Shown: positions 3,222 through 39,011 of the stretch, piece by piece
Layout of the letters: every line of letters starts with the position of its first letter
Numbering within the stretch: the first letter of the stretch is position 1
Origin: a phage
Direction: 5' to 3' (one strand)
DNA: 64,000 bases
Sequence record: PX104378.1
Translations under genes and position numbers: made by a program
The notes under the pieces: generated by a model
Seen by the model: only the letters and a program-made list of their open reading frames with translations
Database searches by the model: none
Told to the model about the DNA's origin: nothing

Positions 3222-3312
3222 AGTCTCTTCCTCTCTTCGTTTTCGATGCTCTCACTATATCACAGAAAAATAAAAAGGGAAACCCCTTTCAGAGTCTCCC
3301 TTATAAAAGCCA

Positions 3313-3600
3313 TTACAGCATACTTAATACCGTTTGCCGTGTACTAACCCACATAGCAGAAAGCAGTTCTGGCGTGTGTGGCTGTTTGTAGATATCACGC
3401 AATTTTCCGATAGCGTAGATATACGCATCACGGTTATCATCGATGATAGCTTGTTCAGCCCACCGCTTAAGGCGTGCAATCTCTCGCGAGTTCTTACGCA
3501 AGATCTTTTCCGCTTTCTTAGCGGCTTTCGCCTCTAGTTCTGCTTGTACTTTGTCTACTTCATTCACTACAATCTTGTCATGTTGTTCATCGTAAGTCAT
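3313..3600 (-). CDS. hypothetical protein (95 aa)
   Basis: Minus-strand ORF, tiles with neighbours. Confidence 0.45.
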   Translation of the reverse strand: MTYDEQHDKIVVNEVDKVQAELEAKAAKKAEKILRKNSREIARLKRWAEQAIIDDNRDAYIYAIGKLRDIYKQPHTPELLSAMWVSTRQTVLSML

Positions 3601-6329: not shown

Positions 6330-6588
6330 AAATCGCCCTCAGTTCTTTATAGCCTCCAATGTGCTCGTTGTCAATGAATATCTGGGGGTATACAAACCGG
6401 AGGCTCTTTGAGTTTAGCCTCCCCGCCAGTTCTTCAATCATATCACGGTCGGGAATAATGTCAACCCCGACCTGCTTGAATACTGGTTTAAGTGTATACG
6501 GAATACCCAGATCATCCAGTAGCTTCATTGCACTAATACAACCATAACAATGATAAGCCTCTTTCGGTATACCGTATATCTCGATCAT
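6319..6588 (-). CDS. glutaredoxin-like protein (NrdH-like)
   Basis: N-terminal CYGC redox motif, ~89 aa, C-terminal GGY..L motif typical of glutaredoxin fold. Confidence 0.7.
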   Translation of the reverse strand: MIEIYGIPKEAYHCYGCISAMKLLDDLGIPYTLKPVFKQVGVDIIPDRDMIEELAGRLNSKSLRFVYPQIFIDNEHIGGYKELRAIYDY

Positions 6589-7082
6589 TTCTCAGCCTTT
6601 AATCTTTCTAGTTCTTCTTCCAGTTCCTTGATCCGTTGGTCACGTTCAAAGTCACGCTGTAACTTAGTGGCGAATACTCGTTTAAACTGATTGTAATCAT
6701 CGATTTTAAACACTTCTTCTTCGCCATAGCGACGCACAGAAACTTCGTAGTTGTTGAAAAATTGTTCCAACATTGCATCAGTAGTCAGTTCTGACGACAC
6801 CACTTTAAAATAACGTTCTTCTGATTGCAAAAACCAGTTGTGCGCGTATTCCCGTACATCATCAACATCTCGACAGGTGTATGTTTTTCCATCAATTTCA
6901 ATCGCAGAAACATATTCGATATCTGACGCAATTTTTTCAAAAGCGATAACTTTAAATGTACGGTCACCGATAAAGTCTGCTATTGCATCATTTGCAACAC
7001 TGGTTGCAAAGGCTTTCCGCGCTCGCTCGTTTTTCCACTGATAGGTCATACCAACAACAAACATATTACCATCAACAAACAT
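6585..7082 (-). CDS. hypothetical protein, paralog family A
   Basis: Contains VGMTYQWKNERARKAF and FKV..DG..YT domain shared with ORFs at 7084, 7930, 8402, 13320, 14555, 15136; charged coiled-coil C-terminus; start at ATG 7082 after GAGG RBS. Confidence 0.55.
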   Translation of the reverse strand: MFVDGNMFVVGMTYQWKNERARKAFATSVANDAIADFIGDRTFKVIAFEKIASDIEYVSAIEIDGKTYTCRDVDDVREYAHNWFLQSEERYFKVVSSELTTDAMLEQFFNNYEVSVRRYGEEEVFKIDDYNQFKRVFATKLQRDFERDQRIKELEEELERLKAEK

Positions 7083-7089
7083 ATTACCA
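7054..7089. repeat. tandem direct repeat 2 x 17 bp (CAACAAACATATTACCA) with 1-nt spacer
   Basis: Read directly; 18-nt period keeps frame and duplicates the start-codon context of ORF 6585-7082 (NMFVDG / NMFVVG). Confidence 0.7.
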
Positions 7090-7917
7090 ACCTCGCTCTT
7101 TACCAATCAAAAATTCAACTTCACGACGTTTAATGTCTTCTTGAAGGTCTTTAATCTTCTGGCGATCTTGCATGATTTCATCCATCTTGTCAAGTGCCGC
7201 AATGAAATCATCGAAACGTTCAAAGGTTTTACCTTCATTTGCTTCGCCAAATTTAACCATTGTCAGGCCATAACGACTACTAAAAAGACGCTTCAACTGT
7301 CCAACGACCTTAGAATCATCGTTCACCTTTTCTTCTGGTTCTTTCACGGTTTCAACTTCACGAAAATATTTTCGTTCAAGCCCAACAAACCACACAGCAT
7401 CAACATCATCATCAACACCCGCCGAATGAGGATTAAATGTTCCACAAACATTATCATTATTGATGTCGATCATAGTAACGAAACCAACAGAATCAACGGA
7501 AGATACCGTAAAAGTCTCATCTCCTATCCAATCAGCAATTTTACGGTTGATATTAGAACAGTGAGAAAACGTCACTTTTGCGTTTACATCCTTCCAAATA
7601 TAAGTTTTACCAACTTCCCATTTAGGAGGAACTTCTTCAACTTCACGAAAGAATTTTATATCAAATGGACTAAACAAATATGTTGACGTCCAAATGTCTT
7701 TTCCTGTAGCCGTTTTCGCCGTATGATAAACACCGTCTAGCTCTATTACATTAATCCAACCATCACCTTCGTTCTCGATGATGGTAAATGGCTTGTCACC
7801 AATAGCTGCACTGATATCGCTGTTAAGTGGAGAAAGAACACCTTCTCCGTTAGTAATAAACTCAGTTTTAGCGTTTTCATCTTTCCAAGTGTAAGTTTTA
7901 CCAATTTCCCATTTCAT
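7084..7917 (-). CDS. hypothetical protein, paralog family A (two repeat domains)
   Basis: MKWEIGKTYTWKD at N-terminus and second internal copy PPKWEVGKTYIWKD. Confidence 0.6.
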   Translation of the reverse strand: MKWEIGKTYTWKDENAKTEFITNGEGVLSPLNSDISAAIGDKPFTIIENEGDGWINVIELDGVYHTAKTATGKDIWTSTYLFSPFDIKFFREVEEVPPKWEVGKTYIWKDVNAKVTFSHCSNINRKIADWIGDETFTVSSVDSVGFVTMIDINNDNVCGTFNPHSAGVDDDVDAVWFVGLERKYFREVETVKEPEEKVNDDSKVVGQLKRLFSSRYGLTMVKFGEANEGKTFERFDDFIAALDKMDEIMQDRQKIKDLQEDIKRREVEFLIGKERGW

Positions 7918-7929
7918 AATATATTCCCC

Positions 7930-8397
7930 TTAACCGATTTTATCAAGTTCGTTTAATGCTTTCTCAGCTTCCTGTATAGCTTGCACTCTTTCCGGCATTT
8001 TGTCAAGAAAATCTTTCAACTCTTCAAAACTGGAGATATGACGCAAGGCGTTAGCACCGATAGCCGCATGTGATTTGCATTCAAAGCGGATTTTATAATT
8101 ATCCATCGCCAACTTGAGAAGATCAATTAATTTAGATTCTTCTGGAATAATAATTTCTTCAAATCTGCTACGGTCATGATCCAGAAACCAACAATATAGA
8201 CCTACATCGGTTGAACTCATATAAGTTCCATCATGAAGATAAACAGACCGCACGTATCCTTTTTTCGCATCAACCGACGCAACTTTAAACGGTAATCTCA
8301 GATATTTCAAATAATCAACATCATACCATTTTAAAAAATGGTCTGCATCTTTTACATCTTTCCAGGCATAGGTCTTACCAACTTCCCATTTCAACAT
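7930..8397 (-). CDS. hypothetical protein, paralog family A
   Basis: N-terminal MLKWEVGKTYAWKD..FKVASVD domain. Confidence 0.6.
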   Translation of the reverse strand: MLKWEVGKTYAWKDVKDADHFLKWYDVDYLKYLRLPFKVASVDAKKGYVRSVYLHDGTYMSSTDVGLYCWFLDHDRSRFEEIIIPEESKLIDLLKLAMDNYKIRFECKSHAAIGANALRHISSFEELKDFLDKMPERVQAIQEAEKALNELDKIG

Positions 8398-8401
8398 AAT
8401 A

Positions 8402-8947
8402 TCACCTTTCGTTTTTGATACGTGATTCTAATTGGATCATACGGTCGCGCGTTTGTTTGTATTCTCGGATAGCACCGATCCGGCTAGGCATACCATCCAG
8501 TACGCTCTTAATACCTTCTAGGGTAGTGATTTTAGCAATGCTATTATGTAACCCCATCTTATCGATCAACTGAATGTCGTAGGCTTCCATAAGCAGACCC
8601 AGACGTTCTAATGTTAAATCCGGTTCTTGTTCTTTATCTTCTTCCTTTTCTTCCGGTTCTGGGATTTCTTTGTCAATAGTAGCTTCGGTAAAGAAACGAC
8701 GCTCACCAGCCCAAAACCACACACCGTAACAGTTAATAGGGGATTCTTTTAAAGTCATGGAGTCGAAATCACTACCAATAATAGTAATTTCTCTAACATC
8801 ACCATCGTCATCAATGTCTTCTACCTTAAACGGGCGACCAGCCAACAAGTCCACAATACATCCGTTAATACCCGACGAAAATTTAGTCAGTTCAGCTTTC
8901 GACGCTTCGCATTTAATATTGTAGATTTTACCTACTTCCCATTCCAT
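8402..8947 (-). CDS. hypothetical protein, paralog family A
   Basis: N-terminal MEWEVGKIYNIK..RPFKVEDIDDDG domain; start at ATG 8947 after GAGGTGATTATT RBS. Confidence 0.6.
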   Translation of the reverse strand: MEWEVGKIYNIKCEASKAELTKFSSGINGCIVDLLAGRPFKVEDIDDDGDVREITIIGSDFDSMTLKESPINCYGVWFWAGERRFFTEATIDKEIPEPEEKEEDKEQEPDLTLERLGLLMEAYDIQLIDKMGLHNSIAKITTLEGIKSVLDGMPSRIGAIREYKQTRDRMIQLESRIKNER

Positions 8948-10763: not shown

Positions 10764-10792
10764 GTTGTCCTCTCGTTGTTTTCGATGTGAGC

Positions 10793-10863: not shown

Positions 10864-12726
10864 TTACATATGCTTAACGCGGTTTACCATCTCAGAGTGT
10901 TTCCCGTGGTTAAATGGACGCAGATCAACAGATCCAAGATATCCACTAACGCGACGGATAACATTCATTTTTTCCAGATTATCATTACCGCAATCAGGAC
11001 AAACAAAACCAAACTCGGTCGCTCTCATTTCCTTAGTAGATCCGCATACATGACACACATCAGAAGGGGTATTAACACCGAAGTAGTGCAATTTATCCAT
11101 TGCATAGTCTACTACAGTTTCAAGACCTTTCAGGTTGTTTTTCATGTCTGGGAACTCAACATAAGAGATCATGCCACCGGACGCCAGCCAGTGATAATCT
11201 TTCTCAAAGTCGATTTTCTCAAATGGAGTGACTTTCCGGTCTACGTCAAGGTGGAATGAGTTGGTGTACCAGTCTTTATCGGTAGCACCCTTAACAATAC
11301 CAAATTGCTCTCGGTCCAGTCGATTAAATCGATAGCAAAGGCTCTCGGCTGGCGTACCGTAAAGACTAAACCCAAGTCCGGTTTCGTCCTTCCATTTTTC
11401 AGTATAATGACGCAAGATCTTAAGAATATGTTTACCGTATCGCTGCGCATCTTCCGAATCAAACGGATGAACACCAAACAGGACGCTCAATACCTCATGT
11501 AAACCAATATATCCAAGAGAGATACTAGCGCGACCATCTTTCAACACTTCCAAAATTTCATCGTTTTGATGAATACGGAAAAATGCACCTTCTGTATACA
11601 GCACCGGAGCAACATTGGCTTTAGCCCCTTTTAAAGCGTCTACGCGACTCATGAGCGCATCAAAGCAAATAGGCATACGATTGGCTAGCTCTTGTTCGAA
11701 TAGCTCAATTCTGCGCATTACAGACGCTTTACCAGCACGACGCGCGGCAATAAGGGCAATACGCGGAAGATTCAGAGTCACAACACCTAAGTTATTACGT
11801 CCGTCTAATACTTCTTCGCCTTTCTCATTATGCCAAACACCCAGGAAGCTACGACAACCCATCGGGCTAACCGGAACACTAGATCCAGTGATACTACGGT
11901 TATTCTTCGCAGAGATATAATCAGGGTAAAGACGCTTACTAGAACATTCCAATGCAAGTTGCTTAATGTCGTAGTTCGGATCTTCCGGTTTAAGGTTTAA
12001 TCCTTCTTCTAAGAACATCACCAGCTTAGGAAACACCGGAGTGATACCATCTTTACCTAAACCTTTAGTTCGAACGTTCAGGATCGCTTTCTGAATCAGT
12101 TTTTCTTCCCAGCTAGTACCCATACCAAAGGTTAAAGTCACAAAAGGCGTTTGACCATTGGTAGAGAACAAAGTGTTGATCTCATATTCCAACGCCTGAT
12201 ATCCGTCTAACGTTTCTTTTTCTGTCTTCTCTTGTGCATAGAGAGTATCAGCTTTGATTCCGTAGGTTTCGGCATCAGCAAGGTGTTTATGATATGTTTT
12301 CTCAACGTATGGCGCTAAAACCTGATCAATGTTTGCTATGGTAGTTCCGCCATATTGATGACTTGCCACCTGTGCGATAATTTGAGCGGTTACAGCACAT
12401 GCAACACCGATTGATTTCGGACTTTCGATTTGTGCACTACCCAATTTAAAACCATTCTCTAACATGTCTTTGAGATTAACAAGACAGCAGTTAGTAAACG
12501 GCATAGCGGGTGCATAATCCATATCATGATAATGAATATCACCGTCTACATGCGCTTTATAGATGTGCTCAGGTAACACGGTTTTAGCAATCTGTTTAGA
12601 CACAGCGCCAGCAATCAGATCTCGACGTGTCGGGAATGTTCGCGCGTCTTTGTTCGCGTTCTCTTTGCTTACTTCGTTTTCTTTACCCGTTGCGATCTCT
12701 GTAATGTCTTTGATTAGTTTTTCCAT
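10864..12726 (-). CDS. nrdD: anaerobic ribonucleoside-triphosphate reductase NrdD (class III)
   Basis: 620 aa; C-terminal zinc ribbon CHVCGS..CPDCG and glycyl-radical motif RVSGYLGSVD; uninterrupted ORF. Confidence 0.95.
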   Translation of the reverse strand: MEKLIKDITEIATGKENEVSKENANKDARTFPTRRDLIAGAVSKQIAKTVLPEHIYKAHVDGDIHYHDMDYAPAMPFTNCCLVNLKDMLENGFKLGSAQIESPKSIGVACAVTAQIIAQVASHQYGGTTIANIDQVLAPYVEKTYHKHLADAETYGIKADTLYAQEKTEKETLDGYQALEYEINTLFSTNGQTPFVTLTFGMGTSWEEKLIQKAILNVRTKGLGKDGITPVFPKLVMFLEEGLNLKPEDPNYDIKQLALECSSKRLYPDYISAKNNRSITGSSVPVSPMGCRSFLGVWHNEKGEEVLDGRNNLGVVTLNLPRIALIAARRAGKASVMRRIELFEQELANRMPICFDALMSRVDALKGAKANVAPVLYTEGAFFRIHQNDEILEVLKDGRASISLGYIGLHEVLSVLFGVHPFDSEDAQRYGKHILKILRHYTEKWKDETGLGFSLYGTPAESLCYRFNRLDREQFGIVKGATDKDWYTNSFHLDVDRKVTPFEKIDFEKDYHWLASGGMISYVEFPDMKNNLKGLETVVDYAMDKLHYFGVNTPSDVCHVCGSTKEMRATEFGFVCPDCGNDNLEKMNVIRRVSGYLGSVDLRPFNHGKHSEMVNRVKHM

Positions 12727-12744
12727 TGTATCACCTATGAAAAA

Positions 12745-12760
12745 GCGGGATTTCTCCCGC
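12745..12760 (-). terminator. intrinsic terminator-like hairpin upstream of nrdD
   Basis: GCGGGAGAAATCCCGC followed by T5 on minus strand, after ORF 12771-13265. Confidence 0.5.
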
Positions 12761-12770
12761 TCGTTGATAG

Positions 12771-13265
12771 TTATTTTACCAGTTCTGCTAATTCTTTTTC
12801 CGCCGCTTCCAGTTCAGCTTTCAGTTGTTTAATCTCTTGTCGCTTCTTATTAGCGGCTTCCTGCTTACTATTTCGGATAACCTGATCTAGATATGAATCC
12901 CACTCATGAATATTTTTGATAATGTAACCGTCAACGTTCAGAACTTTAATATTAAGAACTTCTTCCAGCTTACTTAAAGAACGTTGTGTTTCGGGGAAGA
13001 AATAGTCATATTCACCTCGGTCAAACCAGTAGCGTATGCCAGCTTTATCTAAACGACGATGCAATTCATCAAAATCTCTACCATCTTCGACGATGAGTTT
13101 GTCTACATCGCCATTACAGTTAACAGAGACTTTGAATCTAATATTATCAACCCCACCAAAAACATCAATAAGGATAGTTCCTATCGTGTTATCCGCGCTT
13201 CCAGTATCCATAAAAGATTCTAGTTTTTCTTGATTAGTAACGTACCAAACATCTTGTTTCCACAT
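12771..13265 (-). CDS. hypothetical protein (164 aa) with coiled-coil C-terminus
   Basis: ORF downstream of PeSL promoter 13296-13323; C-terminal KQLKAELEAAEKELAELVK. Confidence 0.5.
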   Translation of the reverse strand: MWKQDVWYVTNQEKLESFMDTGSADNTIGTILIDVFGGVDNIRFKVSVNCNGDVDKLIVEDGRDFDELHRRLDKAGIRYWFDRGEYDYFFPETQRSLSKLEEVLNIKVLNVDGYIIKNIHEWDSYLDQVIRNSKQEAANKKRQEIKQLKAELEAAEKELAELVK

Positions 13266-13295
13266 AATATAATCCTCTCGTTGTTAAGTGGGAGT

Positions 13296-13323
13296 ATTAT
13301 AGCATACTCCCTTCGCATGTCAA
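13296..13323 (-). promoter_or_regulatory. PeSL-type early promoter (TTGACA-N16-TATAAT), hairpin spanning spacer/-10
   Basis: Minus strand TTGACATGCGAAGGGAGTATGCTATAATACTCCC. Confidence 0.65.
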
Positions 13324-14498
13324 GCACTAACTTTTTTCTTTACTGCTTTCACCTTCTGGCGAATTGCTCGAATCTCTTCGATCTCTTTTTCAGTCTCTTT
13401 AACAATTTCTTTGCGATTCTGAATATCTGTATCGAGATTATCATCAAGTTTAGGCAGCATGTCAATCAAGAACTTTTTAAAGTCTTTCAGGTTTCTGATA
13501 ACAGCACCTTCACCCATTACCGCCACCCCTACACCATCCGGCAGATCGCCAAACAGTTTAACCAGTTCAGACAGATGATCATGATCTTCTAGTGCTTCTT
13601 CCGGTTCAGATGGCAGTTCAACAAAGTTATAACGTTCATCATTGCTGATCAGGTGATACCAGCAAAGCCCGAATGATTTCGGTGTATATTCTACACCATC
13701 AATTTCAACCGAGTCAACACTTCCATAATCATCTACTTTAGTTACCTTAAATCCTTGTCCCAGCTTTTGAACAATTTCAACAACATGACTTGATACAGTT
13801 TCAGCGGTAAACCAATATGGCAAATTATGCTGATTTGGCTTGTAGCGTTCACCTACTTTAAATCTCTGACCAGCCGCTTGCATAGCATGAAATTGTTGTT
13901 TCGTGATTTCCGCGAAGTATTCAAATTCGCCACCATCAAACACACAAGCCCATTGTTCACAAAAACGATCTGCCTTAACAGTTTCACCTTTCGCGGTGAT
14001 CATGGTAGCCGACCCGTGAAATTCTTCTTCAACTAAAAAGCCATATTCGACAAAATCAACAAGTTTCATGGCTTCTTTGTGCTCTGGATCATGCTCTCCC
14101 CAGAATCGCTTAAATTCTTGCAAACCTTCCGGGGTAAACGAATAGCACTTACCTTTTTCAAAGTAAGTAGGCATTGCATCGTCTTTCTTGTTCATCGCTT
14201 CGTATGCCTCTTTTGAGATGCGTTTAAAGTATTTGCGCTCATTGTGCATAATCATAGTAGCCCAATAATCCACAATATCATTAGCGGAATAAACTACATC
14301 TCCAGCTTCAATAGTAATAACATGACCGTGGTCATCTTTTTCTAATACTTTAAAGCCCTTTTCTACGATTCCAGCAACCCGAATATGACCACGGCGCGAA
14401 GCATCGGTCAGAATAATTGAATAGCGAGAAAAGTCTAGAAACTCATCTTTACCGCCTTCACGGAATGCATAGTAATGCCCTTCAAAGAATTTAGCCAT
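13320..14498 (-). CDS. hypothetical protein, paralog family A (about three repeat domains, 392 aa)
   Basis: Repeated GFKVLEKDDHG.. / GFKVTKVDDYGSVDSVEIDGVEYT and ERKYFKRISKEAYEAM segments. Confidence 0.6.
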   Translation of the reverse strand: MAKFFEGHYYAFREGGKDEFLDFSRYSIILTDASRRGHIRVAGIVEKGFKVLEKDDHGHVITIEAGDVVYSANDIVDYWATMIMHNERKYFKRISKEAYEAMNKKDDAMPTYFEKGKCYSFTPEGLQEFKRFWGEHDPEHKEAMKLVDFVEYGFLVEEEFHGSATMITAKGETVKADRFCEQWACVFDGGEFEYFAEITKQQFHAMQAAGQRFKVGERYKPNQHNLPYWFTAETVSSHVVEIVQKLGQGFKVTKVDDYGSVDSVEIDGVEYTPKSFGLCWYHLISNDERYNFVELPSEPEEALEDHDHLSELVKLFGDLPDGVGVAVMGEGAVIRNLKDFKKFLIDMLPKLDDNLDTDIQNRKEIVKETEKEIEEIRAIRQKVKAVKKKVSA

Positions 14499-14529
14499 AA
14501 TATAATCCTCTCGTTGTTTAGATGGGAGT

Positions 14530-14558
14530 ATCTTACTACTCCCGTTTCATCATGTCAA
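14530..14558 (-). promoter_or_regulatory. PeSL-type early promoter (TTGACA-N17-TAAGAT)
   Basis: Same GGGAGTA..TACTCCC hairpin module as at 13296 and 15440. Confidence 0.6.
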
Positions 14559-15121
14559 GCGTTAAATGACTTTTTAATCTCTTTCAGTTCTTCCACTTTC
14601 TCGGCGCTGAATTTAGCGTAGGTATCATGTCGAATAATTTCACTTTCAAGAAAGGTTTCCAGTCGAGATCTATTTTCAATAAGGAACTCTTTCAGGTCTT
14701 CCGCGTTCTTGACAAAGATTTTATTGTCGGTAATGTCATCTTCAATCGCAAAGGAGATAGAGCGAACTTTACCAAACAAGTTAATCAGATCTTCCAGAGA
14801 TTCTTCTTTCTTAACTGGTTTCATTTCTTCAAACTGCTTTTTAGTGATGCGTTTAAAGTATTTGCGCTCGTTTGCAGCAATCAGAACAGATGCACCTTCA
14901 TACCCATGAGTTTCTACCAGATACACACGCCCCATCGCATCAACAGTGAGAACTTTAAAGCCGTTACAAAGCACGTCATACAAGAACTTATTATGTTGCG
15001 GACATCGTTTGATAAATTCTGCGGCTGTTTCTGCACTACGGAAAGTATAGTAACGACCTCGTTCAAAAACAGCATCATTTGAAGACTTAGCCGGATACAA
15101 TTTATACGTTTTCTGTACCAT
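14555..15121 (-). CDS. hypothetical protein, paralog family A
   Basis: NGFKVLTVDAMGRV..ERKYFKRITKKQFEEM; start at ATG 15121 after GAGGATTATATT RBS (alternative ATG 15139). Confidence 0.55.
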   Translation of the reverse strand: MVQKTYKLYPAKSSNDAVFERGRYYTFRSAETAAEFIKRCPQHNKFLYDVLCNGFKVLTVDAMGRVYLVETHGYEGASVLIAANERKYFKRITKKQFEEMKPVKKEESLEDLINLFGKVRSISFAIEDDITDNKIFVKNAEDLKEFLIENRSRLETFLESEIIRHDTYAKFSAEKVEELKEIKKSFNA

Positions 15122-15135
15122 AATATAATCCTCTA

Positions 15136-15408
15136 TCATTTCACTAATTGAACAGCACGGAACAGAATGCGCTCACACGGAAGCAGCATAAATTCCCAAC
15201 GCGGATCAAAGTCTTTAGCGGTGTATGTTTTCCCATCAACCGAGATTTCACTTACATAACCAACAGGTGACACTTTAAGAACAGTAAACCCATTCTTGAT
15301 GACTTCGTAGGTATCTTTCACCCCTTCGTATTCATCATCTAAGAAGTCTTTATGTGCTTGCTCAGATTTAAAAACATAGGCCACACCGGATTTAAACATC
15401 TTACGCAT
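15136..15408 (-). CDS. hypothetical protein, paralog family A (single domain)
   Basis: FKSEQAHKDF..NGFTVLKVSPVGYVSEISVDGKTYTAKDF; start at ATG 15408 after GGAGAATCAACA leader. Confidence 0.5.
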   Translation of the reverse strand: MRKMFKSGVAYVFKSEQAHKDFLDDEYEGVKDTYEVIKNGFTVLKVSPVGYVSEISVDGKTYTAKDFDPRWEFMLLPCERILFRAVQLVK

Positions 15409-15439
15409 TGTTGATTCTCCTTCTTGATTAGATGGGAGT

Positions 15440-15468
15440 ATTTTACTACTCCCATTTCTTATTGTCAA
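15440..15468 (-). promoter_or_regulatory. PeSL-type early promoter (TTGACA-N17-TAAAAT)
   Basis: Minus strand TTGACAATAAGAAATGGGAGTAGTAAAATACTCCC then GGAGAATCAACA RBS. Confidence 0.6.
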
Positions 15469-34771: not shown

Positions 34772-35024
34772 AGAATGAAATTTTCACAGACACAATTTTA
34801 CCATAAGTGAAGAATGAATATACATTATCGAGATATTCAACGTCACCTACAATCACATCAAACTGCGGATCAGCAACCGCCGCAACATATTCTACCAGTT
34901 CATCAAGAGAATGCAACTTAATTTCATCAATTCGGCTGTATTTGGTTGCATCTTTGATTTTAAAACCACGTTGTTTCAGCTTATCAATTAGAATTTCACG
35001 CGGAGTTTCAAACAGTTTGCTCAT
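34704..35024 (-). CDS. hypothetical protein (106 aa)
   Basis: ATG after GAGGATTATATT RBS. Confidence 0.5.
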   Translation of the reverse strand: MSKLFETPREILIDKLKQRGFKIKDATKYSRIDEIKLHSLDELVEYVAAVADPQFDVIVGDVEYLDNVYSFFTYGKIVSVKISFCENVEVLASEPEKPTDNGPTAA

Positions 35025-38550: not shown

Positions 38551-38928
38551 TTAAGAATATTTTACTTCGTCTACAATGTCTTTCATGACATTGATTTCCA
38601 TTCCGGTCAGAACACGTTGGAACATGTGCTGCACATACGCTTTCAGGTATTCATTTGATGGCTTGCTATCGAAAGTCTTTTTAGTGTAGTAGTCATCACC
38701 GAAAGCTACTGTAATTACATTTTCGTCGTCGTTCCAAGCGATATAAGCAAATTTGCCGTTATCCCAGAAGCGAGCACTAATTGCTACTTTTGTTGAATCG
38801 AATCCTACTTCGCTGTGAGATTCAAGAACTACTTGCGTGCCAGTTTCTTTATGAATGTAGTAGCGGGATACTAAGTCAAAGTTACGGGTGTAGTGACATT
38901 CGAATTTATCTTTAAACATCATCATCAT
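38551..38928 (-). CDS. hypothetical protein (125 aa)
   Basis: Start at ATG 38928 after PeSL leader; promoter 38966-38994. Confidence 0.5.
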   Translation of the reverse strand: MMMMFKDKFECHYTRNFDLVSRYYIHKETGTQVVLESHSEVGFDSTKVAISARFWDNGKFAYIAWNDDENVITVAFGDDYYTKKTFDSKPSNEYLKAYVQHMFQRVLTGMEINVMKDIVDEVKYS

Positions 38929-38965
38929 TTTGATTCTCCTAAGTGTGTTTCGTTTCGATATGTGC

Positions 38966-38994
38966 ATTATGCTATAGTCGTTTATGGTTGTCAA
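38966..38994 (-). promoter_or_regulatory. PeSL-type early promoter (TTGACA-N17-CATAAT)
   Basis: Leader ACATATCGAAACGAAACACAC and GGAGAATCAAA RBS before ATG 38928. Confidence 0.65.
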
Positions 38995-39011
38995 CACCTA
39001 AAAACAAAAAA

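What the first reader, a model, noticed from the sequence alone, without database searches (positions are those of the whole stretch)
13320..15408. Second family A paralog array between nrdD and gene 49, each copy with its own hairpin promoter
Genes 13320-14498 (about three domain copies), 14555-15121 and 15136-15408 share GFKVLxVDxxGxV...DG and ERKYFKRI(S/T)K motifs with each other and with the array at 6585-8947. Each gene is preceded by a near-identical promoter module in which a GGGAGTA...TACTCCC hairpin spans the spacer/-10 region (13296-13323, 14530-14558, 15440-15468). That pattern suggests the whole gene-plus-promoter unit has been duplicated.
Basis: seen in the sequence. Interest (0 to 1): 0.6.

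Follow-up and report, generated by a model that had tools for sequence, protein, structure and literature searches.

The report
GoF-like paralog array with PeSL promoters
This stretch of an RB49-like (Krischvirus) coliphage holds four neighbouring early genes of the already described T4 GoF/Frd.2 protein family, driven by three copies of an already described promoter-plus-hairpin cassette (PeSL) that is scattered over the whole genome, so it is a correctly seen example of known kinds.

Summary
Together they carry six copies of one ~90-aa domain (B has three). The domain recurs five times in the array at 6585-8947. It is the N-terminal SH3/LSm-like domain of T4 GoF/Frd.2 (Kim et al. 2025).

The three GGGAGTA..TACTCCC hairpin promoters sit exactly where stated. 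They are PeSLs (Arbiol et al. 2010). They precede D, B and A. Gene C has no promoter of its own, and the 6585-8947 array has none inside it.

The reading "gene-plus-promoter unit duplicated" is not supported.
- The domains are only 15-38% identical in protein sequence.
- The promoter cores are 78-86% identical to each other, and equally similar to PeSLs in front of unrelated ORFans in this window and elsewhere in RB49.
- Only the P1-P2 pair stands out, at 85% through a shared 5'UTR.

The PeSLs do act as recombination sites here. Phage KFS-EC has lost D and C and carries a chimeric PeSL3/PeSL2 junction.

Protein function is inferred only (RNA-related, or protein-binding). Verdict: a new member of known kinds, of modest interest.

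The parts
15434..15468 (-). PeSL3. Early sigma70-type promoter with -35 TTGACA at 15468-15463 and -10 TAAAAT at 15445-15440. The hairpin GGGAGTA-gtaaaa-TACTCCC (15453-15434) spans the spacer and -10. It drives D and C.
   Evidence: conserved in position in 9 other Krischvirus genomes
15136..15408 (-). Gene D (RB49 p060 ortholog), 90 aa. A single GoF-like N-domain with no C-terminal domain.
14555..15121 (-). Gene C (p059 ortholog), 188 aa. One GoF-like N-domain plus the C-terminal domain. It has no promoter of its own: a 14-nt gap after D, and the translation-start motif GAGGATTATATTATG.
14524..14558 (-). PeSL2. Promoter with -35 at 14558-14553 and -10 TAAGAT at 14535-14530. Hairpin at 14543-14524. 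The stop codon of C lies inside the -35 hexamer. It drives B.
13320..14498 (-). Gene B (frd.2/p058 ortholog), 392 aa. Three tandem GoF-like N-domains (aa ~1-105, 111-208, 211-298). Its C-terminal domain is a helix, a beta-hairpin and a long helix (aa ~303-392).
13290..13323 (-). PeSL1. Promoter with -35 at 13323-13318 and -10 TATAAT at 13301-13296. Hairpin GGGAGTA-tgctataa-TACTCCC at 13311-13290. The stop codon of B lies inside the -35 hexamer. It drives A.
12771..13265 (-). Gene A (p057 ortholog), 164 aa. A divergent GoF-like N-domain plus a conserved coiled-coil C-terminal domain. The N-domain coding part (about 12900-13262) is a swapped or hypervariable allele.
12740..12761 (-). Intrinsic terminator-like hairpin AGCGGGA-gaaa-TCCCGCT followed by TTTT. 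It lies between the stop of A and the nrdD start at 12726.
   Evidence: sequence; annotated as a terminator at the same place in GEC-3S
6585..8947 (-). The paralogous array H, G, F, E between nrdG and nrdH. It carries five GoF-like N-domains (F has two), all with the C-terminal domain, and has no internal PeSL.

Best explanation
The window comes from an RB49-like T4-type coliphage (genus Krischvirus). The region 12.77-15.47 kb (minus strand) is a four-gene early array. It encodes members of the GoF/Frd.2/MotB.1 family. Each protein has one to three N-terminal five-stranded SH3/LSm-like beta-barrel domains. All except D also have a small C-terminal domain made of a helix, a beta-hairpin and a long helix.

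Shown:
- The family was multiplied by old tandem gene duplications and by domain duplications within genes. This gave 11 domain copies in 8 genes on both sides of nrdD/nrdG.
- The repeated promoter modules are PeSLs. A PeSL is a dispersed regulatory cassette of about 60 nt: a consensus sigma70 promoter, a stem-loop across the spacer and -10, and a conserved 5'UTR with Shine-Dalgarno sequence. About 50 copies per Krischvirus genome have been described, mostly in front of unrelated ORFans.
- The similarity of the three PeSLs therefore reflects membership of that cassette family, not co-duplication with the genes.
- The PeSLs serve as homologous recombination sites. Phage KFS-EC deleted the D-C cassette by an exchange between PeSL3 and PeSL2.

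Inferred:
- Host RNA polymerase starts at P3, P2 and P1 right after infection and gives nested early transcripts D-C, B and A.
- The hairpin lies upstream of each promoter's own start site, so it is present only in read-through RNA from the upstream gene. There it would attenuate or stabilise the 3' end.
- A true terminator follows A.
- The proteins most likely modulate RNA fate, by analogy with T4 GoF(D25Y), which stabilises gene 41 mRNA. The wild-type function of the family is unknown.
For: Identity of the phage: 59 Krischvirus records match at 87-98%.

Protein family:
- The window-only N-domain HMM hits T4 GoF at 1e-10 and Frd.2 at 5e-6 over the full domain.
- With the T4 proteins held out, a broader HMM gives GoF 3e-16, Frd.2 1e-8 and MotB.1 3e-4.
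- T4 GoF and Frd.2 fall in phrog_622, which B, C, D, E, F, G and H also hit.
- RefSeq names p058 and p059 goF-like.

Fold:
- The AF2 model of B (pLDDT 73) shows three repeats of beta-alpha-beta-beta-beta-beta.
- Its BFVD neighbours are uncharacterised T4-like phage proteins, including the ortholog of F.

PeSL:
- The definition and the promoter/terminator assays are in PMC2839356.
- The anatomy is met here.
- The same subtype sits in front of unrelated genes in the window (38544, 30667) and in RB49 (131500, 131725, 132006, 158746, 159253).
- Stem pairing is kept through A-U, G-C and G-U variants.

Recombination:
- The KFS-EC junction is the PeSL3 5' half joined to the PeSL2 3' half, and B follows gene 49 directly.
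- The D-C DNA is absent from KFS-EC and present once in each of the other 57 records.

Decoupling of gene copies from promoters.
Against: - No expression, transcript-end or binding data for this phage were available to me. Promoter activity and hairpin function are carried over from other PeSLs tested by Arbiol et al.
- The three hairpins lack a downstream U-run, so they are not canonical intrinsic terminators.
- Wild-type GoF and MotB.1 had little effect in the only functional assay (PMC12152347), so the RNA role is weakly grounded.
- P1 and P2 are more alike than any other pair (85%), which leaves room for a local shared origin.
- RB49 positions 87.7-114 kb were not scanned for further family members.
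Confidence: 0.8

Rival explanations
1. A cassette made of promoter, hairpin, 5'UTR and gene was tandemly duplicated as one unit. The promoter similarity is a relic of that event.
For: - P1 and P2 are 85% identical from -35 to ATG, and they share a nearly identical 5'UTR of about 25 nt.
- B and C both end GCT TGA inside the -35 hexamer.
- The exact GGGAGTA..TACTCCC stem is found only at these three sites in this 64-kb window.
Against: - The coding copies are 15-38% identical, whereas the promoters are 71-86% identical.
- Promoters just as similar precede unrelated ORFans.
- C has no promoter.
- The five domain copies at 6585-8947, and the three inside B, were multiplied without promoters.
- The shared 5'UTR pieces also occur at unrelated genes: AACAACGAGAGGA at 10768, and GAGGATTATATTATG at 14 sites.
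Confidence: 0.12
2. Local concerted evolution. The three PeSLs were acquired independently of the genes. They are kept alike by gene conversion or recombination between neighbouring copies, which gave them the shared GGGAGTA stem and made P2 a mosaic (5' half like P3, 3' half like P1).
For: - The mosaic pattern of P2.
- A demonstrated P3 x P2 exchange in KFS-EC.
- Sharp mosaic boundaries at PeSL1 in gene A.
- Arbiol et al. propose PeSLs as recombination sites.
Against: - Each PeSL keeps its own private differences, unchanged in position, across 10 genomes. Homogenisation is therefore slow or old.
- The GGGAGTA stem also occurs far away in RB49.
Confidence: 0.3
3. A rival reading of function. 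The N-domains are protein-binding SH3-like adaptors that target host factors (host take-over or counter-defence), not RNA-binding LSm-like modules. The multiplicity and allelic turnover would then reflect an arms race.
For: - The closest solved fold is the SH3-like FeoA, not Hfq (PMC12152347).
- Wild-type GoF and MotB.1 have little effect on RNA.
- The N-domain of A is replaced by alleles only 52-66% identical in DNA, while its C-terminal domain and flanks stay 96-100% identical.
- Domain number and chimeras vary among relatives.
Against: - GoF(D25Y) stabilises an mRNA.
- The second suppressor, G84R, falls on a column where 6 of 11 copies here carry K or R.
- The GoF pull-down recovered no dominant partner band besides GoF itself and its dimer.
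Confidence: 0.35

Closest known systems
T4 GoF / Frd.2 / MotB.1 LSm-like fold family (Kim et al. 2025, PMC12152347)
   Same: - Significant sequence similarity of the N-domain.
- A five-stranded beta-barrel, with FeoA as a PDB neighbour.
- The architecture N-domain, acidic linker, small C-terminal domain.
- Early genes of T4-type phages that are non-essential in T4.
   Different: - T4 has three dispersed single-domain genes. Here there are 8 clustered genes with 11 domains in the window, plus Dc2 in RB49.
- These include a three-domain protein, a two-domain protein and a protein with the domain only.
- The C-terminal domain is extended by a long helix.
- RB49 has none of these genes at the T4 goF, motB.1 or frd.2 positions.
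- The paper does not mention Krischvirus, arrays or tandem domains.
PeSL (promoter-early stem-loop) cassettes of RB49/phi1 (Arbiol et al. 2010, PMC2839356; Comeau et al. 2014, PMC4122927)
   Same: - Consensus sigma70 promoter with a stem-loop between or over the -35 and -10 boxes.
- Stop codon of the upstream gene at the 5' edge, and Shine-Dalgarno sequence plus start codon at the 3' edge.
- Location in a hyperplastic region.
- Deletion of the flanked cassette by PeSL x PeSL recombination, leaving a chimeric PeSL.
   Different: Nothing essential. These three copies are not discussed individually in the paper text. The KFS-EC deletion of D-C is a further natural example, with its crossover inside the hairpin rather than in the AT-rich part.
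Rho-independent (intrinsic) terminators
   Same: A GC-rich stem-loop placed 10-20 nt after the stop codon of the upstream gene.
   Different: No U-run follows the three PeSL hairpins. Only the hairpin after gene A (12740-12761) has one.

Membership tests
GoF/Frd.2/MotB.1 LSm-like fold family | N-terminal domain homologous in sequence to T4 GoF/Frd.2 | tested here: met
   - Window-only HMM: GoF 1e-10, Frd.2 5e-6.
- Held-out broader HMM: GoF 3e-16, Frd.2 1e-8, MotB.1 3e-4, gene A 3e-6.
- Shared phrog_622.
GoF/Frd.2/MotB.1 LSm-like fold family | Bent five-stranded antiparallel beta-sheet (SH3/LSm-like) N-domain | tested here: met
   - The AF2 model of B has three repeats of beta1-helix-beta2-beta3-beta4-beta5, at pLDDT 73.
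- Confidence is moderate.
- In the model of A the fourth strand is replaced by a helix.
GoF/Frd.2/MotB.1 LSm-like fold family | N-domain joined by a linker to a separate C-terminal domain | tested here: met
   - Met for A, B, C, E, F, G and H.
- Not met for D, which is the domain alone.
- T4 GoF aligns to phrog_5347 across both parts.
GoF/Frd.2/MotB.1 LSm-like fold family | Early expression and a post-transcriptional effect on mRNA | not testable with these tools
   Only the presence of sigma70-type promoters upstream. No transcript or binding data.
PeSL | Sigma70 consensus -35 and -10 with 16-18 nt spacing | tested here: met
   TTGACA with TATAAT, TAAGAT or TAAAAT: 10-12 of 12 positions
PeSL | Stable stem-loop within or overlapping the promoter | tested here: met
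   - A stem of 7-9 bp spans the spacer and -10, at -11.9 to -14.5 kcal/mol.
- 100% of cells are paired in 10 subtype members, with one compensatory pair.
PeSL | Intergenic in a hyperplastic region, bounded by the upstream stop codon and the downstream Shine-Dalgarno sequence and ATG | tested here: met
   Sequence. The stops of B and C lie inside the -35 hexamer. The gene 49 stop is 3 nt before the -35 of P3.
PeSL | Acts as a site of homologous exchange that deletes or inserts the flanked genes | tested here: met
   The KFS-EC chimeric PeSL3/PeSL2 junction with loss of D-C
PeSL | Promoter and attenuator activity in vivo | not testable with these tools
   Shown for other PeSLs by Arbiol et al., not for these copies
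Intrinsic terminator | Hairpin followed directly by a U-run | tested here: not met
   - The PeSL hairpins are followed by ATCTAA or ACTTAA on the transcribed strand. None is listed on the minus strand.
- The feature is met only by 12740-12761 (GEC-3S annotation).

The most novel reading that the evidence does not exclude
The two Krischvirus arrays may be a diversifying, cassette-exchanging family. In it the SH3/LSm-like N-domain would be a swappable specificity module. The signs are the allelic replacement in A, the chimera of H and F, and the variable domain number. PeSLs and the conserved C-terminal domain would serve as the recombination scaffolds. This implies an arms-race role, such as targeting variable host RNA-decay or defence factors. 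The multi-domain B protein would then be a natural 'gain-of-function' form. This is hinted by the basic residue at the GoF G84R position, which B domain 1 and five other copies carry.
Probability: 0.15. Interest if true: 0.55.

Novelty: new member of a known kind. Interest (0 to 1): 0.3.

Why it matters
It ties two separately published ideas to one concrete locus: the GoF-type early protein family and PeSL-mediated modular shuffling.
- The family that T4 carries as three scattered genes is expanded in Krischvirus to at least nine genes, including a three-domain protein.
- A natural isolate shows the predicted PeSL x PeSL deletion of two of these genes.

This offers material for asking what GoF-type proteins do: natural multi-domain and basic-residue variants, and a natural D-C deletion strain. 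It does not reveal a new kind of system.

Tried and rejected
- Pfam and NCBIfam gave only sub-threshold noise. Rfam gave nothing in 6-16.5 kb.
- The PeSL hairpins as intrinsic terminators: rejected, no U-run.
- A neighbour-joining tree of the 14 domains was unresolved. Only B1+B2+C1 (56%) and F1+F2 (74%) had any support, so it cannot order the duplications.
- Small HMMs could not link the C-terminal domains of the two arrays. The link rests on the alignment and on phrog_5347.
- Weak HMM hits at 38551-38997 and 34707-35021 were rejected as family members, because they belong to other PHROGs.
- The Foldseek search with the model of A was weak.
- The idea that the GoF D25Y position is aromatic in several copies depends on an ambiguous gap placement, so it was dropped.
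- The exact stem GGGAGTA looked private to this locus in the window, but it is not private genome-wide in RB49.
- Several fetched loci did not reach the script sandbox, so cross-genome PeSL comparisons were done with DNA alignment instead.
Full report
SOURCE. The 2.8 kb around the finding matches 59 phage records, all Krischvirus (RB49, phi1, JSE, JK32 and others), at 87-98% identity and in the same gene order. All genes here run on the minus strand. In RB49 the ORFs are p057 to p060, lying between nrdD and gene 49. RefSeq already names p058 (frd.2) and p059 "goF mRNA metabolism modulator".

OBSERVATION: CODING REPEATS.
- I call the ORFs D (15136-15408, 90 aa), C (14555-15121, 188 aa) and B (13320-14498, 392 aa).
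- An alignment of the ~90-aa segments shows one shared domain. Its hallmarks are (W/F)ExGxxY at the start, FKV..D..G.V in the middle and ER(K/R)(Y/F)F at the end.
- Cross-validation excludes chance. An HMM built only from the 6585-8947 array finds B (3e-12), D (1e-8) and C (6e-8) as the top non-training hits among 785 six-frame ORFs. The reverse HMM finds F, E, H and G (1e-10 to 3e-4).
- B holds three copies of the domain.
- The motifs are confined to these ORFs. The full ERKYFKRI(S/T)K string is present only in B domain 1 and in C.
- A is a divergent member. A held-out profile gives E 3e-6 over the whole domain. hhalign gives 87-94% probability. Its model is only partly similar, and its structural neighbours overlap weakly with those of B.
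- The window therefore holds 8 genes with 11 domain copies: D1, C1, B1-3 and A1, plus H1, G1, F1-2 and E1.
- All except D also share a C-terminal part made of a helix, a beta-hairpin and a long helix.

OBSERVATION: PROMOTER MODULES.
- The GGGAGTA..TACTCCC hairpins are at 13290-13311, 14524-14543 and 15434-15453: 3 matches against 0 expected. They fold at -11.9 to -14.5 kcal/mol. Each covers the spacer and the -10 box.
- The promoters precede D, B and A. C starts 14 nt after the stop of D with no promoter, so D and C form one unit.
- The 6585-8947 array has no internal promoter module at all.
- A hairpin with a U-run at 12740-12761 ends the array just before nrdD (annotated as a terminator in GEC-3S).

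WHAT THE PROTEINS ARE.
- The window's own domain HMM hits T4 GoF (1e-10) and Frd.2 (5e-6) end to end. With the T4 proteins held out, a broader profile gives 3e-16, 1e-8 and 3e-4 (the last for MotB.1).
- T4 GoF and Frd.2 belong to phrog_622, which seven of the eight window proteins also hit.
- Kim et al. 2025 (PMC12152347) defined this family as proteins whose N-terminal half is a five-stranded LSm-like (SH3-like) barrel, joined by a linker to a variable C-terminal domain. FeoA is its closest solved neighbour. The wild-type function is unknown. GoF(D25Y) stabilises gene 41 mRNA.
- The AF2 model of B (pLDDT 73) shows three beta-alpha-beta4 repeats and the C-terminal helix-hairpin-helix.
- The family is small. 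Only 69 cluster representatives out of 1.84 billion reach E 1e-3, and they carry one to three domains.
- Three-domain proteins like B are nearly confined to Krischvirus-like phages.
- In RB49 the only further member found is Dc2, directly upstream of gene 41. Nothing was found in 114-164 kb. Positions 87.7-114 kb were not scanned.

WHAT THE PROMOTER MODULES ARE.
- They fit the PeSLs of Arbiol et al. 2010 (PMC2839356). That paper describes about 50 cassettes per RB49/phi1 genome. Each has a sigma70 promoter with a stem-loop between or over the boxes, an upstream stop codon and a downstream Shine-Dalgarno sequence and ATG. They are concentrated in hyperplastic regions. Promoter and attenuator activity, and a role as recombination sites, were shown experimentally for other copies.
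- The same subtype has 9 nt, a 7-bp stem GGG(A/G)GTA, the loop GTAAxA and then TAC(T/C)CCC. It precedes unrelated genes at window 38544 and 30667 and at RB49 131500, 131725, 132006, 158746 and 159253.
- Stem pairing is kept through A-U (6 sequences), G-C (3) and G-U (1) at one pair, and 100% of cells are paired.

TEST OF THE UNIT-DUPLICATION IDEA.
- Core identity is 86% for P2-P3 and 78% for P1-P2 and P1-P3. P2 is also 86% identical to three PeSLs of unrelated genes, and P3 is 86% identical to RB49 159253.
- Over the full -35-to-ATG span only P1-P2 (85%) exceeds the background (at most 79%). The cause is a shared 5'UTR. Parts of that UTR also occur elsewhere: GAGGATTATATTATG at 14 sites and AACAACGAGAGGA at 10768.
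- The coding copies are 15-38% identical and their tree is unresolved.
- Copies in the other array and inside B were multiplied without promoters.
- Gene multiplication and promoter similarity are therefore decoupled.

RECOMBINATION AT THE PeSLs.
- Across ten genomes each PeSL is stable in position and keeps its own private differences. P2 looks like P3 in its 5' half and like P1 in its 3' half.
- Phage KFS-EC lacks D and C. There B follows gene 49 directly. The single PeSL left is the PeSL3 sequence up to GGGAGTAGTAA, followed by PeSL2 sequence.
- The D-C DNA is nowhere in KFS-EC, and it occurs once, at the same place, in the other 57 records. This is the deletion product predicted by the PeSL model.
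- The N-domain coding part of A (about 12900-13262) is only 52-66% identical to RB49 and ELT4. The identity jumps to 96-100% at PeSL1 and at the C-terminal domain.

MECHANISM.
- Shown: family membership, the fold type at moderate confidence, the PeSL anatomy, and the PeSL x PeSL deletion.
- Inferred: early transcription from P3, P2 and P1.
- Inferred: the hairpins act only on read-through RNA, because each lies upstream of its own promoter's start site.
- Inferred: an RNA-related role of the proteins. A protein-binding adaptor role is a live alternative.

VERDICT. The finding is a sound observation with one wrong gene-to-promoter assignment and one missed gene. Its evolutionary reading is mostly not supported. 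Both components are already described kinds. The clustered, multi-domain expansion and the KFS-EC deletion are new examples, not new biology.

Noticed in passing
L005 (KFS-EC, MH560358) 3301-3363; corresponds to window 14499-15468: KFS-EC lacks genes D and C. Its single PeSL upstream of B is a chimera: the PeSL3 5' half joined to the PeSL2 3' half. The D-C DNA is absent from the rest of that genome.
   Followed up: yes
window 12900-13262: The N-domain coding part of gene A is only 52-66% identical in DNA to RB49 and ELT4. PeSL1, the C-terminal domain of A and the flanks are 96-100% identical. Database orthologs fall into at least two allele classes (88-99% and about 61-63% aa identity) with near-identical C-terminal halves.
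   Followed up: partly
window 14844-15044: The N-domain of gene C is 74-84% identical to RB49 but 100% identical to ELT4, while neighbouring segments are 92-100% identical. This is a second mosaic patch inside a domain.
   Followed up: no
window 7084-8947 (genes F, G, H) and proteins P0009, P0010, P0014, P0056: Many database orthologs of F carry one N-domain instead of two. P0056 fuses the N-terminal part of an H-type domain to the end of F domain 2 and the C-terminal domain of F. Paralogous domains therefore recombine, and domain number varies.
   Followed up: partly
L012 11993-12628 (RB49 Dc2, p021; outside the window): Dc2 is a GoF-like protein (HMM E 2e-7; ECD7 Dc2 is among the Foldseek hits of B). 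It lies directly upstream of gene 41, whose mRNA is the one stabilised by T4 GoF(D25Y).
   Followed up: partly
window, 14 sites on the minus strand (e.g. 13263, 14496, 15119, 18628, 20199, 35022): The translation-start motif GAGGATTATATTATG recurs 14 times (up to 2 mismatches; 0.2 expected), always on the minus strand in front of genes of various families.
   Followed up: partly
window 12740-12761: A hairpin with a U-run sits 10 nt after the stop of A and 13 nt before the nrdD start codon. nrdD translation signals therefore lie just beyond a terminator.
   Followed up: no
window 13318-13323 and 14553-14558: The stop codons of B and C (GCT TGA) are embedded in the -35 hexamer TTGACA of the next PeSL.
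   Followed up: yes
ER[KR][YF]F column of the domain alignment (e.g. B aa 87-91, C aa 85-89): The second T4 goF suppressor, G84R, falls on a column where 6 of the 11 window domains naturally carry K or R. The D25 column could not be aligned reliably.
   Followed up: partly
window 14555-15408 compared with 7084-7917: D (90 aa, domain only) plus C (188 aa) add up to 278 aa. This is the same layout and size as the two-domain protein F (277 aa), as if one were a split or fused form of the other.
   Followed up: no
L012 and L013/L014 (RB49 1-50 kb and 114-164 kb): RB49 has no goF, motB.1 or frd.2 homolog at the T4 positions (next to 39, motB and frd). All detected family members are the two nrd-flanking arrays and Dc2.
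   Followed up: partly
proteins P0065 (5094 aa), P0091, P0101, P0116: Very large proteins match a ~30-aa stretch of the domain profile many times (up to 14 stretches). This is probably an unrelated repeat that resembles FKV..D..G.V.
   Followed up: no
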